A stretch of 25,018 bases of DNA. It comes from a virus. The position numbers and the translations under genes were made by a program. The stretch lies in UHGV virus genome UHGV-1360762; one strand, given 5' to 3'. Below are positions 7,997 through 18,924 of the stretch, one piece after another. How positions within the stretch are numbered: position 1 is the stretch's first letter; every line of letters begins with the position of its first letter. The notes beneath the pieces are model-generated. The model was not told where the DNA came from. It made no database searches and saw only the letters and a program-made list of their open reading frames with translations.

Positions 7997-8129
7997 TTTT
8001 TGGAACTCCTGGCTGATTAAGTACGTCGATGAGTCGTTTCCATCCGTCACGTAATTTACGGGTGATTCGTTCAAGTAAAGATTCGGAAGGGCAGCCAGCA
8101 ACAGGCCACCCTGCAATGGCATATTGCAT
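7989..8129 (-). CDS. cIII: cIII (FtsH inhibitor stabilising cII), lambda-like
   Basis: MQYAIAGWPVAGCPSESLLERITRKLRDGWKRLIDVLNQPGVPKNG is near-identical to recalled lambda cIII. Confidence 0.88.
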   Translation of the reverse strand: MQYAIAGWPVAGCPSESLLERITRKLRDGWKRLIDVLNQPGVPKNG

Positions 8130-8190
8130 GGTGTACTCCTTATTTATACATAACGAAAAACGCCTCGAGTGAAGCGTTATTGGTATGCAT

Positions 8191-8631: not shown

Positions 8632-8931
8632 TCAAATAAGTGGTTTGCTGCCTAATTTCATTTTCTGGCGACCAACACAAGTCACCCCCATTTCACTGCG
8701 TGGCTTGCGGTAGTAAATACGGTTCTGTTTACGCTCGACTTCATCTGCCTTCTTGCAGAGAAGGCTTCCGAGTGATGCTGCTTTGTCTGCTCTGACGCAA
8801 CCAGAGAGCTTTAGCGCAATTTTTCGCGCCAGTCGCTGCTCTTGCATCGCCTGTTCACGTTGAGCCTGTCTGCGTGCTCTGCGGCGATTTCTGGCGTTAT
8901 CGTCAGCCAGATATGTAATGACTACTGTCAT
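8632..8931 (-). CDS. N: N-type transcription antiterminator with arginine-rich motif (phage-21-like)
   Basis: ARM NARNRRRARRQAQREQ near the N-terminus; C-terminal half resembles recalled phage 21 N (…KPRSEMGVTCVGRQK.KLGSKPLI); first gene downstream of pL/nutL; GGAGGT RBS. Confidence 0.85.
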   Translation of the reverse strand: MTVVITYLADDNARNRRRARRQAQREQAMQEQRLARKIALKLSGCVRADKAASLGSLLCKKADEVERKQNRIYYRKPRSEMGVTCVGRQKMKLGSKPLI

Positions 8932-9331
8932 GTTGACCTCCGATGAAACAACTTTGGAATTTTTTTTATTACAAAGTGGTTTCCTTCCCCGCCAATTAGA
9001 CGGGGATGGAAGAGCATTTATGAGCCTTCATGGACTCTGCTCGATCAGTTCTATTTAATTAATCTCTCAACTGAATGTAAGTATTCACATAAATCCTCCT
9101 ACCTCTTGTGCAGCTTTCTTGAATATGGTGGCGGCTGCATAACGCCTATGGAATTGACTTTGGCGATTGGATGGCCGGTGCTGAACTCCGGCTTACTGGT
9201 TAGAGCGCCCGCACTACCAGTGACGCTGTCTTGAGGCGCAGATTGGTTACTGCTTGCCATGAGCGCTGTTTATACATTGGTCGAGCATCAGCCTGCTCAT
9301 TCATCCAATCCCAAAGCCAACTACTCTTTGG

Positions 9332-9373
9332 TTCCCGCATTTCGGCGGGACAATCCCATCAATGTTAAAGAGC
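9332..9373 (-). promoter_or_regulatory. nutL: nutL (boxA GCTCTTTAACA and boxB hairpin TCCCGCCGAAATGCGGGA)
   Basis: Reverse complement of 9332-9373 reads GCTCTTTAACATTGATGGGATTGTCCCGCCGAAATGCGGGAA; boxA and boxB are identical to the nutR copy at 10462-10507. Confidence 0.8.
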
Positions 9374-9414
9374 CTGCCAATCTGTTCCGTTTGGCTACCA
9401 GCGTCCTGCTGATG

Positions 9415-9500
9415 GCTTAAATTTAAGATCTCTTTAATTAATGGTCAAGAGTATTTTTGAAGAAAACTTAAATTTTCTTTCGTAACTTAAGTTTGGCTTT
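9415..9500 (-). promoter_or_regulatory. OL operators and pL promoter (P22-type operator half-sites)
   Basis: ATTTAAGATCTCTTTAAT at 9421-9438 resembles P22 18-bp operators; minus-strand TTGACC (rc of 9443-9448) with downstream TAAAT-type -10; sits between the cI terminator and nutL. Confidence 0.6.
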
Positions 9501-9515
9501 GATTTTTAAAGGAAA

Positions 9516-9541
9516 TAAAAAAAGGGGCGAATGCCCCCTTA
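9516..9541 (-). terminator. Rho-independent terminator immediately 3' of the repressor gene
   Basis: AAAAAAAGGGGCGAATGCCCCCTT; on the minus strand GGGGGCATTCGCCCC followed by TTTTTTT. Confidence 0.75.
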
Positions 9542-10189
9542 TGGAAGGTTTGCTAGTTTTGCATCGACAACTACGCCGATGATTTTGCAGTTTCCGTTGA
9601 TCTCGATCATCGGATATTGTGGGTTAAGTGGTTTTAGAAACTTCCTGCCTGCATCAATAACTAACTTCTTGAAAGTTGCCTCGTTTTCTCCTTCGAGCTT
9701 TGCAACTACCAGTTTCCCGTTACGCGGCTCTACTTCAGGATCGACGAGTATTATCATTCCTTCAGGGATACTGAGACCGGCCGGAGCCGTCATTGAGTCT
9801 CCCTTCACGTCCAACCAAAACGAATCTTCTGAACAGTCTACGGTTGTATCGTACCAGTTATCTATTGCACGCTTATGATATGGTTCTACAGCTTCCATCC
9901 AGCATCCTGCGCTCACCCAGCTAATCAGAGGGTATGACCCTCTTGGATCATGCCTACTGTGATAGGCAATGTTTGAAAGACTTTCCTCTCCTTTCATCAG
10001 ATAGTCAGGGGAACACTTCAACGCATTAGCCAGGGCGAGAAGATTCTCTCCATTTGGCTCTGTCTCAGAGCGTTCCCACTGAGATATGGCAACATTAGAC
10101 ACGCCGACCATCTTTCCAAGTGCGGCCTGCCTGATCTTGAGTTCTTTTCTCCGAGCGCGAATGCGCTCTCCCATCAATTGAGTTTTCAT
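9539..10189 (-). CDS. cI: Prophage repressor, P22 C2-type (HTH N-domain, LexA-like autocleavage C-domain)
   Basis: 216-aa protein near-identical to recalled P22 C2 (…TQLMGERIRARRK.LKIRQAALGKMVGVSNVAISQWERSETEPNGENLLAL…). Confidence 0.95.
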   Translation of the reverse strand: MKTQLMGERIRARRKELKIRQAALGKMVGVSNVAISQWERSETEPNGENLLALANALKCSPDYLMKGEESLSNIAYHSRHDPRGSYPLISWVSAGCWMEAVEPYHKRAIDNWYDTTVDCSEDSFWLDVKGDSMTAPAGLSIPEGMIILVDPEVEPRNGKLVVAKLEGENEATFKKLVIDAGRKFLKPLNPQYPMIEINGNCKIIGVVVDAKLANLP

Positions 10190-10461: not shown

Positions 10462-10507
10462 TGCTCTTTAACAGTCATGGTCCTCATTCCCGCCGAAATG
10501 CGGGAAT
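10462..10507 (+). promoter_or_regulatory. nutR: nutR (boxA TGCTCTTTAACA, boxB TTCCCGCCGAAATGCGGGAA)
   Basis: boxA-like element followed by a boxB stem-loop between cro and cII; same boxA/boxB as nutL. Confidence 0.8.
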
Positions 10508-16607: not shown

Positions 16608-16792
16608 ACGCCACAATTCAAACGATACCAGAGCTTCTTATCCAGACACGAGGCAATCAGACCGAAGTGGCAAGGATGCTTTCCTGCGCAAGAGGAACAG
16701 TGCTCAAGTACAACCGAGACAGCAAAGGCGAGCGTCACGTAATAGTTAACGGCGTCCTGATGGTCAAACAAGGCAAGAGGGGAAGACGATGA
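16604..16792 (+). CDS. ninH: NinH-like DNA-binding protein
   Basis: TIPELLIQTRGNQTEVARMLSCARGTVLKYNRDSKGERHVIVNGVLMV resembles recalled lambda NinH. Confidence 0.8.
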   Translation: MNATIQTIPELLIQTRGNQTEVARMLSCARGTVLKYNRDSKGERHVIVNGVLMVKQGKRGRR

Positions 16793-17307
16793 GCATAAGA
16801 GAACTAAACCTCACCAAAGAGCAGCACGAGTGGCTGAATGGCTGGCTTGAACTGTGGGGCGCATGGGTTTATTCAGGTCGTCTGGAAAAGCGCATGAGCA
16901 GCGTAATAGCGAAGTTCATGGAGAGCGTAGAGCCGGGAAGAGTTATGACAAGGCCAATGTGCAATGATGATGATGGAATGTTGATTTCTCAGGTCGTCGA
17001 TTCCGTCATGTGCATTGACAAGAAAGCCTTTGGCATCCTCCTCAGCTACTACGCTCATGGTTCATCTAAGCGAGCAATTGCATCCTACTATCACGCGACT
17101 GCAAAGCCACGCAAGATGTGTGGACGTGGTGGCGAGGGATGGAGAAAACCTTCACTGGCAACCTGTAGAAACGAAATTGACGACATCCTGAAAGCGTCGT
17201 TATTTGTTTTGTACCAGCCAATGCAAAATGCTTTCAAAATGCGTAAACGTGTTGAGAAAGTTAAGCATGTTGCTGTTAAAAGCCTTGACATGCAATTATC
17301 CATTTAG
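16789..17307 (+). CDS. Q: Late gene antiterminator Q (phage-82-type Phage_antitermQ family)
   Basis: LELWGAW… and TRPMCNDDDGMLISQVV motifs resemble the ERWGAW / RPQCCDDD signatures of this family; followed directly by a promoter and short-leader terminator. Confidence 0.75.
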   Translation: MSIRELNLTKEQHEWLNGWLELWGAWVYSGRLEKRMSSVIAKFMESVEPGRVMTRPMCNDDDGMLISQVVDSVMCIDKKAFGILLSYYAHGSSKRAIASYYHATAKPRKMCGRGGEGWRKPSLATCRNEIDDILKASLFVLYQPMQNAFKMRKRVEKVKHVAVKSLDMQLSI

Positions 17308-17320
17308 CCATAATATTCAC
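17285..17320 (+). promoter_or_regulatory. pR' late promoter / qut region (-35 TTGACA 17285-17290, -10 CATAAT 17309-17314)
   Basis: Consensus -35 with 18-bp spacer to a near-consensus -10, overlapping the Q stop codon; terminator about 40 nt downstream. Confidence 0.6.
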
Positions 17321-17344
17321 ATATGCTGCTGCTTTTGCATTCAG

Positions 17345-17369
17345 CAACCATCACAAGCCCACCTCCTGT
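17345..17369 (+). terminator. tR'-like rho-independent terminator (AAGCCCAC CTCCT GTGGGCTT + TTTTT)
   Basis: Perfect 8-bp GC-rich stem, 5-nt loop and T-run immediately downstream of the putative pR'. Confidence 0.8.
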
Positions 17370-17501
17370 GGGCTTTTTTGCATTCGCGTGCAATCAAAAC
17401 AAGAGTCTTAGTGATATGGGCCTGAGATATGGTGGTGGAAACATCGCTCCGCTCTTGGCTGTCATATCTACGCGAACAGGCTCTATCCCTAAGGTAAAGC
17501 G

Positions 17502-18014
17502 ATGAAAGAAATAAAATTAACGCCAGAAATGGTGCTTTCTGTTGTTGATTACAATCCATCATCAGGCGACTTTCACTGGAGATGGAGGCAGGGGAGAGAG
17601 AGGACCACTTTGACATGGAACTCTCGTTTTGCTTTCAAGAAATGCTCATCAATAAATTCTGATGGGTATTTAATGATTATGATTAATGGTAAAGCATACC
17701 CTGCTCACAGACTGGCATGGTTGATTGTTTATGGCACCATGCCCGATGGTTTTATTGATCACATCAACAGGGTAAGAACAGATAACCGGATATCAAATCT
17801 TCGTCTTGTCACTCATTCCGAAAATATGCAGAACAGGAAAATTCAGAAGAATAATAAATCTGGATACCGTGGCGTGTCTTGGGATGCTAAGTACGGGAAA
17901 TGGAGAGCAAGAATTAATGCGTCTGGAAAGTGTATTAACCTTGGATACCATGACACTGCCGAACTTGCCGCTGCGGCTTTTGAGGCCGCCAGAATTAAAT
18001 ATCATACCGTTTAA
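17502..18014 (+). CDS. HNH endonuclease with C-terminal AP2 DNA-binding domain (homing-endonuclease-like)
   Basis: HNH_3-like core (…AHRLAWLIVYGTMPDGFIDHINRVRTDNRISNLRLVTHSENMQN) followed by AP2-like YRGVSWDAKYGKWRARINASGKCINLGYHDTAELAAAAFEAA; AT-rich coding sequence. Confidence 0.8.
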   Translation: MKEIKLTPEMVLSVVDYNPSSGDFHWRWRQGRERTTLTWNSRFAFKKCSSINSDGYLMIMINGKAYPAHRLAWLIVYGTMPDGFIDHINRVRTDNRISNLRLVTHSENMQNRKIQKNNKSGYRGVSWDAKYGKWRARINASGKCINLGYHDTAELAAAAFEAARIKYHTV

Positions 18015-18600
18015 AGATGTAGCTGCCGTTAGTGACTCTTAAGTTGCAACGGTGGCTTTTTTGTTTGCACAACAGGTAAGAGCATTGAACCCGCAGACCT
18101 CGCGGAATTGGTGAAAGGTGCCGCGCAGTACTCTTATCGTTGTGGTGAATACGCAGGCTGATGCGTTAATCAGGTGAACGAGACACCCGCCGGTCCGTGA
18201 TATGGCACACCGTGCCGGTCATATCTGCCGCGGTTAGGTTTACGAGGATTTCGTAAAGCTGGTCTAGGGTGAAGCCGTGAAAGCGGAGGAAGTAAAACGA
18301 GGCGTCGGTACACGCCTATCGTCATTAAGTCGGAGTTCAGCACCGACCGCCACAACCCAAACTGAGCCGTAGCCACTGGTTATCCTGAACTCATCAGTGA
18401 TAGTTATGCTGCGGCCTTCTACATATGACCTTCGTGAAAGCGGGTGGCAAGAGGCTGCGCTAACAACCTCATGCCGTTTTGCCCGTGCATATCGGTCACG
18501 AACAAATCTGATTACTAAACACAGTAGCCTGGATTTGTTCTATCAGTAATCGACCTTATTCCTAATTAAATAGAGCAAATCCCCTTATTGGGGGTAAGAC

Positions 18601-18924
18601 ATGAAGATGCCAGAAAAACATGACCTGTTAGCCGCCATTCTCGCGGCAAAGGAACAAGGCATCGGGGCAATTCTTGCGTTTGCAATGGCGTACCTTCGCG
18701 GCAGATATAATGGCGGTGCGTTTACAAAAACAGTAATCGACGCAACGATGTGCGCCATTATCGCCTGGTTCATTCGTGACCTTCTCGACTTCGCCGGACT
18801 AAGTAGCAATCTCGCTTATATAACGAGCGTGTTCATCGGCTACATCGGTACTGACTCGATTGGTTCGCTTATCAAACGCTTCGCTGCTAAAAAAGCCGGA
18901 GTAGAAGATGGTGGAAATCAATAA
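18601..18924 (+). CDS. S: Holin S (class I, dual-start MKM), lambda-type
   Basis: Near-identical to recalled lambda S ([61 protein letters not shown]...); upstream leader also lambda-like. Confidence 0.96.

What the first reader, a model, noticed from the sequence alone, without database searches (positions are those of the whole stretch)
8932..9340. Long N leader shares collinear sequence blocks with the region upstream of holin S
The leader between nutL (9332-9373) and the N start (8931) is about 400 nt, against roughly 160 nt in lambda, with no ORF of 60 aa or more. Read on the minus strand it contains, in order, GCAGGCTGATGC (rc of 9285-9296), TAAGCCGGAGTTCAGCACCGGCC (rc of 9174-9196), TTATGCAGCCGCC...CAAGAGG and TAATTAAATAGA (rc of about 9050-9061). 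The same blocks occur in the same order and transcriptional sense on the plus strand between the HNH-AP2 gene and S: 18153-18164, 18327-18349 (15/15 core CGGAGTTCAGCACCG), about 18396-18440, and 18563-18574. Two non-coding leaders in opposite genomic orientation, each co-directional with its own operon, appear to be diverged copies of one element. That suggests a shared cis-acting RNA (processing or antitermination-related structure, or sRNA) or a recombination footprint.
Basis: seen in the sequence. Interest (0 to 1): 0.6.

Follow-up and report, generated by a model that had tools for sequence, protein, structure and literature searches.

The report
tRNA-shaped RNA module in phage leaders
The N leader and the holin leader each carry one copy of a widespread, unannotated phage RNA that folds like a tRNA, with a variable insert where the anticodon arm would be; it is probably cut out or used as a processing signal by the host's tRNA-maturation enzymes.

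Summary
The two strongest shared blocks are the conserved 5' and 3' halves of one structured RNA module. It is present once in the N leader (9165-9310, minus strand) and once in the late leader (18139-18356, plus strand).

A covariance model built from 64 other phage contigs finds exactly these two sites (75.6 and 67.7 bits, E about 1e-18 and 1e-16). The fold resembles a tRNA:
- a 7-9 bp acceptor-like stem stacked on a 5 bp hairpin (12 conserved bp);
- an AAU linker;
- a 5 bp hairpin with loop GGCUGA, complementary to the other hairpin's UCAGC;
- a 26-275 nt variable domain in the anticodon-arm position.

Covariation is strong: 97.5% of cells pair, and 15 of 23 pairs change on both sides.

The family occurs in N leaders, in late leaders (where Sf6 has real tRNAs), in the P1 tRNA cluster and across Proteobacteria prophages. 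It matches no Rfam family, is unannotated in the records examined, and I found no paper on it. The two copies are separate cassettes, not a duplication.

Function is inferred: most likely a tRNA-mimic processing ("punctuation") element or scaffold.

The parts
9165..9310 (-). N-leader copy of the tRNA-shaped module (146 nt), complete
   Evidence: Covariance model R1, built from 64 other contigs: 75.6 bits, E 4.6e-18, full length. All stems intact.
9302..9310 (-). acceptor-like stem, 5' strand GAUUGGAUG
   Evidence: Pairs 9/9 with 9165-9173 (CAUCCAAUC). Differs from the late copy by compensatory changes.
9283..9298 (-). hairpin H2 (D-arm position): GAGCA GGCUGA UGCUC, preceded by linker AAU 9299-9301
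Evidence: Stem covaries across the family; the loop is invariant.
9193..9282 (-). variable domain (90 nt) in the anticodon-arm position
   Evidence: Unrelated to the late copy's domain. 98.5% identical to the one in myophage ep3 and 95.6% to Klebsiella phage KO-TP1.
9174..9192 (-). hairpin H3 (T-arm position): GCCGG AGUUCAGCA CCGGC
Evidence: 5 bp stem that covaries (GCCGG/CCGGC against GUCGG/CCGAC in the late copy). Followed directly by the acceptor 3' strand.
9165..9173 (-). acceptor-like stem, 3' strand CAUCCAAUC, followed by GCCA
9311..9331 (-). small hairpin CCAAAG-AGUAGUUGG-CUUUGG between nutL and the module
   Evidence: Read from the sequence. Conserved in CUS-3 and HK140, which carry another cassette after it.
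9332..9373 (-). nutL (boxA GCUCUUUAACA, boxB 9332-9350)
   Evidence: 19-nt perfect and 18-nt inverted repeats with nutR at 10463-10506 (I5 and I13).
18139..18356 (+). late-leader copy of the tRNA-shaped module (218 nt), complete
   Evidence: R1: 67.7 bits, E 5.3e-16. The minimum-free-energy fold reproduces the acceptor stem, H2 and H3.
18139..18147 (+). acceptor-like stem, 5' strand GUUGUGGUG (linker AAU 18148-18150)
   Evidence: Pairs 9/9 (one G-U) with 18348-18356 CGCCACAAC.
18151..18166 (+). hairpin H2: ACGCA GGCUGA UGCGU
18167..18328 (+). variable domain (162 nt)
18329..18347 (+). hairpin H3: GUCGG AGUUCAGCA CCGAC
18348..18356 (+). acceptor-like stem, 3' strand CGCCACAAC, followed by CCA
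   Evidence: Same junction as the 3' CCA end of tRNA-Thr in Sf6.
18068..18144 (+). H1: long imperfect hairpin directly 5' of the late module; its last bases overlap the acceptor 5' strand
   Evidence: Fold. Homologous to lambda 44787-44864. A stem at this place in 105 of 233 family members against 41 of 233 in shuffles, with many compensatory variants.
18023..18066 (+). tR'-type leader terminator hairpin plus U run, upstream of H1
   Evidence: Identical to the annotated Sf6 and phage 21 late leader terminator.

Best explanation
Shown: both leaders contain a member of one structured RNA family, transcribed as part of the operon leader with no promoter or terminator of its own. The RNA is a four-way junction with tRNA topology. 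A 7-9 bp acceptor-like stem is followed at its 3' side, with no spacer, by a 5 bp hairpin H3, so that 7 + 5 = 12 conserved stacked base pairs result, as in tRNA. A 3-nt linker (AAU) leads to a 5 bp hairpin H2. The H2 loop GGCUGA is complementary to UCAGC in the H3 loop, an elbow-like loop-loop contact. A freely variable domain sits where the anticodon arm would be.

Inferred (about 45% for the mechanism as a whole): the module is a tRNA mimic read by the host's tRNA-maturation machinery. RNase P would cut at the 5' end of the acceptor-like stem, with 3' trimming or endonuclease cuts behind it. It would then act as 'punctuation', cutting the part of the transcript that carries the antitermination site and leader terminator (nutL, or qut/tR') away from the first gene's mRNA (N, or holin S). 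This is the job RNase III does in the lambda N leader. It would also release or leave a stable tRNA-shaped RNA that displays the variable domain.

The conserved scaffold halves also serve as homology patches where cassettes are exchanged between phages.
For: Structure:
- 64 members chosen by loop motifs only: 97.5% of cells paired, 15 of 23 pairs changed on both sides, 127 compensatory cells against 30.8 +/- 4 in shuffles (0 of 500 reach it); slid controls pair at 28-48%.
- 100 unique cores: 92% paired against 27-44% when shifted.
- G-U 47 against A-C 7, so the sense strand folds.
- Positions 3-9 of the acceptor pair in at least 94%; positions 1-2 in only 54-75%.
- Loop-loop pair: G-C 163, G-U 20, A-U 3, A-C 3 (Fisher p 0.025), plus one case of matched deletions, GGCGA with UCGC.

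tRNA context:
- Every tRNA gene within 500 nt is on the same strand (15 of 15), and 8 of them begin within 10 nt of the module's 3' end.
- In Sf6, tRNA-Asn and tRNA-Thr occupy exactly the slot between tR' and AACUGAGCC that H1 plus the module fill here.
- P1 has tRNA-Asn and tRNA-Thr followed by three [H1 + module] units.

Leader context:
- The largest group of downstream genes is N-like, starting about 26 nt after the module; others look like small membrane (holin-like) proteins by eye.
- No promoter or terminator lies at either window copy.
- U is at position -1 in 63%.

Established knowledge: E. coli RNase P cleaves minimal acceptor-stem/T-stem/T-loop hairpins, and also phage M3 RNA, the P1/P7 C4 RNA precursor, tRNA-like structures and mRNAs (PMC11143913). 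RNase III cleavage between nutL and N in lambda is from my own knowledge of the literature.
Against: - No RNA ends, cleavage data or expression data were available; processing is inferred from shape and position only.
- The H3 loop has 9 nt and lacks the T-loop consensus, and the elbow would be a 5 bp kissing helix, so recognition by the RNase P specificity domain is uncertain.
- Position +1 is usually U-A, not G-C.
- A 3' CCA is present in only about 40% of members within 8 nt, at variable offset.
- ARAGORN and the Rfam tRNA model do not see the module.
- In this window N starts 233 nt after the module, not about 26 nt, so any direct effect on the N ribosome-binding site is less obvious here.
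- Lambda works without an intact module: its N leader has none, and its late leader has a degenerate remnant at 13.7 bits. The module is therefore not essential to lambdoid leader function.
Confidence: 0.45

Rival explanations
1. A trans-acting stable non-coding RNA. The tRNA-like part is only a stabilising and processing scaffold. The function lies in the variable domain (base-pairing sRNA, protein decoy or sponge, possibly anti-defence), which differs from phage to phage.
For: The variable domain ranges from 26 to 275 nt and is exchanged as a cassette. The window's N-leader domain is 98.5% identical in the unrelated myophage ep3, with a different acceptor stem and H2 stem. P1 carries three units in a row inside a tRNA/sRNA operon with a dicF-like region. 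Some members are followed directly by terminators (21 of 104). The family also occurs in virulent Klebsiella and Pseudomonas phages that have no N or Q leaders.
Against: No target was found. The best antisense matches of both window domains within the window are 11-12 nt, about what chance gives. The variable domains show no common motif. This reading is compatible with the best explanation rather than exclusive of it.
Confidence: 0.25
2. A cis-acting structure that works without cleavage: a 5'-proximal fold that stabilises the downstream mRNA, or sets up translation of the first gene (N, holin), or insulates it from the upstream nut/terminator RNA.
For: In many members the N-like start lies about 26 nt after the acceptor 3' strand. 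The 3' flank is G-poor with consensus ACCCAA. The lambda N leader has a large structure at the same place that affects N translation (own knowledge).
Against: This does not explain the tRNA-like 7 + 5 bp geometry, membership in tRNA arrays with 5-10 nt spacers, or the copies followed by terminators or tRNAs rather than genes. In this window N is 233 nt away.
Confidence: 0.15
3. DNA-level 'boundary sequences': short conserved stretches kept because they promote homologous recombination between phage modules, with no RNA function.
For: CUS-3 annotates these intergenic regions as bsq3, bsq4 and bsq5, 'boundary sequence'. Window and CUS-3/HK140 differ by a clean cassette swap bounded by the acceptor stem ends. 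Late leaders of many phages match only in the flanks.
Against: Recombination sites need identity, not complementarity. The stems change by compensatory substitutions across Proteobacteria, G-U is tolerated and A-C is not, and orientation relative to tRNAs is fixed. Recombination is best seen as a side effect.
Confidence: 0.08
4. Decayed tRNA genes (pseudogenes) left in old tRNA slots, or a chance resemblance between two leaders.
For: The slot is occupied by real tRNAs in Sf6 and phage 21. Some H1 cargos and variable domains contain tRNA relics such as GGUUCGAAUCC.
Against: The non-tRNA loops GGCUGA and AGAUCAGCA/AGUUCAGCA are nearly invariant. The stems covary in hundreds of distinct members from Enterobacterales to Burkholderiales and Xanthomonadales. 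Chance is excluded by E values near 1e-16 to 1e-18.
Confidence: 0.03

Closest known systems
Canonical tRNA and phage tRNA genes in the lambdoid late leader (Sf6, phage 21: tRNA-Asn, tRNA-Thr)
   Same: Four-way junction. 7 bp acceptor stacked on a 5 bp 3'-proximal hairpin with no spacer. Short linker to a D-arm-like hairpin. Contact between the two side loops. Same genomic slot, same strand, tRNA-like spacing in arrays.
   Different: No anticodon arm (26-275 nt variable domain instead). The H3 loop has 9 nt without the T-loop consensus. The loop-loop contact is a 5 bp Watson-Crick helix. Not detected by ARAGORN or the Rfam tRNA model. Encoded CCA is inconsistent.
Non-tRNA RNase P substrates and tRNA mimics (plant-virus TLS, mascRNA, precursor of P1/P7 C4 antisense RNA, phage phi80 M3 RNA, bacterial YrlA Y RNA)
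   Same: A tRNA-shaped or acceptor/T-type helix embedded in a longer transcript. Phage precedents for RNase P processing exist (PMC11143913).
   Different: No sequence or covariance-model similarity to any of them (Rfam). Cleavage is untested. The cargo domain and kissing loops are specific to this family.
RNase III processing structure of the lambda N leader
   Same: Same position, between nutL and the N ribosome-binding site. The closing helix is followed by ACCAAAGC...SD in related N leaders.
   Different: The lambda N leader gives no match to the model. The module's helices are too short for RNase III. Only H1 in the late leader is a long duplex.
Lambdoid 'boundary sequences' (bsq features, as annotated in CUS-3; concept from the HK620 genome paper, own knowledge)
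   Same: The same stretches of DNA: bsq3 and bsq5 cover the late and N leaders of CUS-3. Cassette swaps end in them.
   Different: That concept is about DNA recombination. Here the conserved parts are shown to be the paired halves of an RNA fold.
Small RNAs of the pR' leader and moron region (lambda 6S, IsrJ, StxS, AgvB, AsxR)
   Same: Same operon leader. In L251, IsrJ is the short terminated pR' transcript just upstream of H1 plus the module.
   Different: These are different RNAs. No Rfam match to AgvB, AsxR or IsrJ in the window. Those are 50-80 nt terminator-ended sRNAs, not tRNA-shaped.
Large phage-associated structured RNAs that cluster with tRNAs (ROOL, GOLLD)
   Same: Phage-borne, unexplained function, frequent neighbourhood of tRNA genes (own knowledge; PMC12286853 listed).
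   Different: Those are 500-800 nt multimeric RNAs of other bacterial phyla. No model match here.

Membership tests
tRNA (RF00005 / ARAGORN) | 7 bp acceptor stem continuous with a 5 bp T-type stem; four-way junction | tested here: met
   Covariation supports 7 strongly conserved acceptor pairs plus 5 H3 pairs with no spacer.
tRNA (RF00005 / ARAGORN) | Anticodon arm (5 bp stem, 7-nt loop) and T-loop/D-loop consensus; detection by tRNA finders | tested here: not met
   ARAGORN finds 0 genes in the window. No Rfam tRNA hit even at E up to 10. The variable domain is 26-275 nt.
tRNA (RF00005 / ARAGORN) | Discriminator base plus 3' CCA | tested here: inconclusive
   CCA lies within 8 nt after the 7 bp stem in 95 of 239 members, at varying offset. 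Both window copies have CCA after a 9 bp stem, with (N leader) or without (late leader) one spacer base.
RNase P substrates (tRNA-like) | About 12 bp coaxial acceptor/T-type helix capped by a loop | tested here: met
   Requirement as stated in PMC11143913.
RNase P substrates (tRNA-like) | Actual cleavage at the 5' end of the acceptor stem | not testable with these tools
   Needs end mapping or an in vitro assay.
Lambda-type N-leader RNase III site | Located between nutL and the N start | tested here: met
   Module at 9165-9310, nutL at 9332-9373, N start at 8931.
Lambda-type N-leader RNase III site | Homology to the lambda leader, or a long (about 20 bp) duplex | tested here: not met
   No R1 match in lambda 35000-35700. 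Module helices are 5-9 bp.
Lambdoid boundary sequences (bsq) | Conserved non-coding stretch at module junctions, shared among lambdoid phages | tested here: met
   CUS-3 features bsq3-5 overlap the homologous regions. Cassette swap.
Lambdoid boundary sequences (bsq) | Conservation explained by DNA identity alone | tested here: not met
   Compensatory changes and G-U/A-C asymmetry.
Known Rfam families (4227 models, including AgvB, AsxR, IsrJ, C4, DicF, ribozymes, riboswitches) | Score at or near the family threshold | tested here: not met
   The only gathering-level hit in the window is Lambda_thermo at 8084-8142. Hits at E up to 10 over both modules are noise. Eighteen further loci with strong R1 matches have no overlapping Rfam hit.
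Hammerhead ribozyme (suggested by CUGAUG in block 1) | Core CUGANGA ... GAAA with three helices | tested here: not met
   The motif reads CUGAUGC, and its U, G and C are paired in the H2 stem. No Rfam ribozyme hit.

The most novel reading that the evidence does not exclude
Phages of Proteobacteria use a natural 'tRNA scaffold' system. Interchangeable cargo RNAs are inserted at the anticodon position of a tRNA-shaped carrier, often paired with a second carrier hairpin (H1). They are transcribed inside operon leaders or tRNA arrays, excised by RNase P and 3' processing, and act in trans (sRNA, decoy or anti-defence). The same cuts punctuate the early-left and late transcripts. The family would be a new class of phage RNA with cassette-like evolution.
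Probability: 0.3. Interest if true: 0.85.

Novelty: new variant of a known kind. Interest (0 to 1): 0.72.

Why it matters
The leaders of the N and late operons of lambdoid phages are among the most studied regulatory regions in biology. Yet a strongly covarying RNA fold in them, also present in phage P1 and in at least 175 isolated phage genomes and many prophages from Enterobacterales to Burkholderiales, has no Rfam model and no annotation, and I found no paper on it. In P1 it lies under ORFs (plp, upl) annotated on the opposite strand.

If it is processed like a tRNA, several things would follow:
- tRNA-type punctuation, known from mitochondria, would extend to phage operons.
- It would give a mechanistic counterpart to the RNase III site of the lambda N leader.
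- It would explain why real tRNAs and these modules replace each other in the same slot.
- It would point to a natural version of the tRNA-scaffold trick used to express recombinant RNAs.

It also explains part of the 'boundary sequences' invoked for lambdoid mosaicism. The question is directly testable in standard strains (P1 lysogens, E. coli ATCC 11775).

Tried and rejected
1. Whole-leader homology. Outside the two scaffold halves the leaders are not significantly similar: variable domains, upstream flanks, and blocks 3 and 4 at p about 0.02-0.05. The 233-nt segment 8932-9164 occurs only in CUS-3 and HK140 and never in a late leader.
2. tRNA or tmRNA genes: none.
3. Known RNA families: none. 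A 13-bit match to the plant-virus TLS-PK1 model is noise, although it first drew attention to the hairpin-plus-CCA shape.
4. Hidden protein genes. The ORFs over the modules (9099-9260, 9259-9420, 18170-18376) have no Pfam hit. Only a 20-residue PHROG hit of unknown function falls on the ORF antisense to nutL.
5. Anti-sRNAs AgvB/AsxR and Pas sRNAs. I read the papers; these are different, shorter RNAs with Rfam models that do not match.
6. Antisense targets of the two variable domains inside the window: only 10-12-mers, the chance level.
7. Own promoter or terminator at the modules: none.
8. Lambda as a reference. Its N leader lacks the module, and its late leader keeps H1 but only a degenerate module.
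9. Literature. Full-text searches by topic and by the motif sequences themselves gave nothing relevant. The 2023 catalogue of 10,006 candidate viral RNAs could not be checked because its supplements are not held, so an unnamed prior listing cannot be excluded.
10. Crude ORF-orientation statistics were noisy (about 2:1 co-directional). I replaced them with tRNA orientation and the G-U/A-C asymmetry.
Full report
WHAT THE WINDOW IS. The window is a P22-like/lambdoid prophage segment very close to phage CUS-3. On the minus strand it runs cI (9539-10189), pL (9448-9420), nutL (9332-9373), a roughly 400-nt leader, then N (8632-8931; phrog_271, E 3.8e-36). On the plus strand it runs Q (16789-17307), pR' (17285-17314), an inserted HNH-AP2 endonuclease cassette, the old tR' hairpin, a roughly 540-nt leader, then holin S (18601-18924).

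CHECK OF THE OBSERVATION.
- The reverse complement of the N leader aligns to the late leader far better than shuffles do. The local score is 37 against 19.8 +/- 2.2. The gapped score is 57.5 against 35.3 +/- 4.1, and the wrong orientation scores 26.
- The signal comes from blocks 1 and 2.
- The stretch downstream of them, which holds blocks 3 and 4, is only marginal when tested alone: 9-18 of 400 dinucleotide shuffles do as well.
- The sequences between blocks 1 and 2, and the upstream flanks, are unrelated.

WHAT BLOCKS 1 AND 2 ARE. An exact search for the 15-mer core of block 2 in viral contigs returned many loci. Upstream sequences differed, but two things recurred: a second motif (GUGAAUGCGCAGGCUGAUGCGC) 60-200 nt upstream, and a tail (CACCACAA) complementary to the bases just before that motif. 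A second search anchored on block 1 returned the mirror picture. The common architecture is:
- a 5' strand of 7-9 nt;
- the linker AAU;
- hairpin H2, with a 5 bp stem and loop GGCUGA;
- a variable domain of 26-275 nt;
- hairpin H3, with a 5 bp stem and loop AGAUCAGCA or AGUUCAGCA;
- directly after H3, a 3' strand that pairs with the 5' strand.

The window's N-leader copy has GAUUGGAUG/CAUCCAAUC where the late copy has GUUGUGGUG/CGCCACAAC. It has GAGCA/UGCUC where the late copy has ACGCA/UGCGU, and GCCGG/CCGGC where the late copy has GUCGG/CCGAC. The two copies therefore differ by compensatory changes in all three helices.

STATISTICS OF THE FOLD. I picked members only by the two loop motifs, with no pairing requirement.
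- Among 100 unique cores, 92% of positions pair, against 27-44% when the partner is shifted.
- On a MAFFT alignment of 64 members that excludes the window and its near-identical relatives, 97.5% of cells pair. Fifteen of 23 pairs change on both sides, and 127 cells are compensatory against 30.8 +/- 4 in column shuffles (0 of 500 reach this). Slid controls pair at 28-48%.
- Acceptor positions 3-9 pair in at least 94% of members, but positions 1-2 in only 54-75%. The conserved stack is therefore 7 + 5 = 12 bp, the tRNA number.
- G-U pairs outnumber A-C 47 to 7, so the strand that folds is the transcribed sense strand.
- The two loops can form five Watson-Crick pairs (GCUGA with UCAGC). These bases are almost invariant. 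The end pair shows G-C 163, G-U 20, A-U 3, A-C 3 (Fisher p 0.025), and one member has matched deletions (GGCGA with UCGC). The loop-loop contact is therefore likely but not proven.
- A covariance model from the 64 sequences finds exactly two sites in the window: 9165-9310 on the minus strand (75.6 bits, E 4.6e-18) and 18139-18356 on the plus strand (67.7 bits, E 5.3e-16). The next hit is at E 0.07.
- Thermodynamic folding alone reproduces the scaffold for the late copy.

WHERE THE FAMILY LIVES.
(a) N leaders. Many members are followed within about 26 nt by a Shine-Dalgarno sequence and an arginine-rich N-like gene, including lambda-N-type proteins.
(b) Late leaders, after the short terminated pR' transcript. 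In locus L251 that short RNA is the Rfam family IsrJ. The first downstream genes there look like small membrane (holin-like) proteins by eye; I did not run them against a family library.
(c) tRNA arrays. Every tRNA within 500 nt is on the same strand (15 of 15), and 8 of them begin within 10 nt of the module's 3' end.
(d) The P1 tRNA operon. After trnA and trnT come three units, each a long hairpin (H1) plus a module: a reduced 'mini' form, the standard type at 79.5 bits, and a variant 'type B' at 27.6 bits. All lie on the tRNA strand, underneath the oppositely annotated ORFs plp and upl. The P1-type copy is on phage-plasmids of 547 of 5426 complete E. coli genomes.
(e) Beyond lambdoids. The 3' half matches 175 isolated phages, including virulent Klebsiella siphophages and Pseudomonas, Burkholderia, Xanthomonas, Erwinia and Aeromonas phages. 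A 19-mer of the 5' half hits species genomes across Gamma-, Beta- and Alphaproteobacteria and beyond, and 61 of 80 of these loci give full-length matches above 50 bits.

In every record examined, the annotation under the module is 'none', 'hypothetical protein' or, in CUS-3, 'boundary sequence'.

THE SLOT IS A tRNA SLOT AND A CASSETTE SLOT. In Sf6 the late leader reads pR', tR', tRNA-Asn, tRNA-Thr(...CCA), UAACUGAGCCGUAGCC... In this window the same flanks enclose H1 (18068-18144) and the module, which ends ...CGCCACAACCCA before AACUGAGCCGUAGCC.

In the N leader, CUS-3 and HK140 share the window's nutL, the small hairpin 9311-9331 and the downstream GCCAAAGUCAAUUCC. Between these they carry a different, shorter cassette with its own closing stem (GGUGACGUG/CGCGUCACC). 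The swap ends exactly at the outer ends of the acceptor stem.

The window's N-leader variable domain recurs at 98.5% identity in the myophage ep3. There it is joined to the other acceptor type and preceded by an H1 like the late one. The two window copies are therefore separate cassettes of one family, not an internal duplication.

Lambda itself has no module in its N leader. Its late leader keeps H1 (44787-44864) followed by a degenerate remnant (13.7 bits, E 0.06). This may be why the fold escaped classical work.

HOW IT MOST LIKELY WORKS.
Shown: the fold, its strand, its embedding in leaders without signals of its own, its equivalence of position with tRNAs, and its cassette behaviour.
Inferred: the module is read as a tRNA by the maturation machinery. 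E. coli RNase P needs little more than a stacked acceptor/T-type helix with a loop. It is known to cut phage M3 RNA, the P1/P7 C4 precursor, tRNA-like structures and mRNAs (PMC11143913).

A cut at the 5' end of the acceptor-like stem would separate nutL, or the qut/tR' leader, from the N or S mRNA. U is at position -1 in 63% of members. In lambda that separation is made by RNase III in the N leader and relieves N autoregulation of translation (my own knowledge of the literature, not re-read here).

In arrays, the 5-10 nt spacer to the next tRNA means that the RNase P cut for that tRNA would also define the module's 3' trailer. A discrete tRNA-shaped RNA carrying the variable domain should then accumulate.

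I put about 0.45 on this processing ('punctuation') mechanism. The main alternative, about 0.25, is that the point of the scaffold is to deliver the variable domain as a trans-acting RNA; this is compatible with processing. Structure-only cis effects get about 0.15, pure DNA recombination sites about 0.08, and pseudogenes or chance about 0.03.

Points against RNase P recognition:
- the 9-nt non-T-loop;
- U-A at position +1;
- the irregular CCA;
- failure of the tRNA finders;
- the 233-nt distance to N in this particular window.

COMPARISON WITH WHAT IS KNOWN. The module works like a tRNA mimic but is not a tRNA: the anticodon arm and loop consensus tests fail. It matches none of the 4227 Rfam families. 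It occupies the place of the lambda RNase III site without homology to it. It coincides with the 'boundary sequences' annotated in CUS-3, but the covariation shows these are RNA helices.

Topic searches and searches for the motif strings in 8 million full texts found no description. A large 2023 catalogue of unnamed candidate viral RNAs could not be checked.

I therefore rate it a new variant of a known kind (tRNA-like structures): a new family with a cargo domain and kissing loops.

VERDICT.

Noticed in passing
window 17314-18020: A cassette of about 707 bp replaces 10 nt immediately after the -10 hexamer of the late promoter pR', relative to CUS-3 and Sf6. It holds a 60-aa ORF without family and an HNH_3+AP2 homing-type endonuclease (17502-18014). 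It brings a new initial transcribed sequence and its own terminator (17355-17381). The original tR' hairpin survives at 18023-18066, so Q-modified polymerase must now read through two leader terminators and the endonuclease gene before reaching S.
   Followed up: partly
window 18068-18144; lambda NC_001416 44787-44864: H1, a long imperfect hairpin with variable apical 'cargo', sits directly 5' of the late module, and its last bases overlap the acceptor 5' strand. A stem at this place is seen in 105 of 233 family members (41 of 233 in shuffles) with many compensatory variants. Lambda keeps it. In some phages the cargo is a tRNA relic (GGUUCGAAUCC). It is long enough to be an RNase III substrate. 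It is not in Rfam.
   Followed up: partly
L458 (phage P1 NC_005856, 69.3-70.2 kb): Downstream of trnA and trnT, P1 has three consecutive [H1 + module] units on the tRNA strand (mini form, standard type, type B). The annotated genes plp and upl lie on the opposite strand over them, and plp even overlaps trnT. These ORFs may be annotation artefacts. A 'dicF-like region' lies just upstream in the same operon.
   Followed up: partly
L001 (CUS-3) 1611-1669; L363 (HK140); window 9165-9310: CUS-3 and HK140 carry a shorter cassette in the N-leader slot. It has its own closing stem GGUGACGUG/CGCGUCACC and an H3-like hairpin ACCGGAAGAUAAGCACCCGG, but no GGCUGA loop. Similar 'mini' forms occur in P1 and as the lambda late-leader remnant. 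A further subtype ('type B': GCGGCUCAGCGCACGC ... ACCGGGAGGCACCCGG) is common in viral contigs. The family is probably a superfamily.
   Followed up: partly
window 9085-9100 (minus strand): A strong Shine-Dalgarno sequence (AGGAGG) is followed by a start-stop mini-ORF, AUG-UGA. It is fully conserved in HK140 although the flanks have diverged to about 74% identity. This may be a ribosome-loading or regulatory feature of this unusually long N leader.
   Followed up: no
window 8084-8142 (minus strand): Rfam Lambda_thermo (cIII thermoregulator element), 84.2 bits, E 2.3e-19. It is the only Rfam family at gathering threshold in the window.
   Followed up: no
window 9259-9420 (plus strand ORF): A 53-aa ORF antisense to pL and nutL matches phrog_6589 (unknown function) over 20 residues. 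That PHROG is probably built from spurious ORFs called across this conserved non-coding region.
   Followed up: no
family-wide; window 9153-9164 and 18357-18368: The 8 nt after the acceptor 3' strand are strongly G-depleted (5-15% G), with consensus ACCCAA. This could be a single-stranded landing site (3' processing, Hfq or Rho). It remains unexplained.
   Followed up: no
window 18697-18708 against 18167-18328: The late module's variable domain has a 12-nt perfect antisense match to codons inside the holin gene S (CGCGGCAGAUAU). About 0.5 such matches are expected by chance, so it is probably meaningless.
   Followed up: partly
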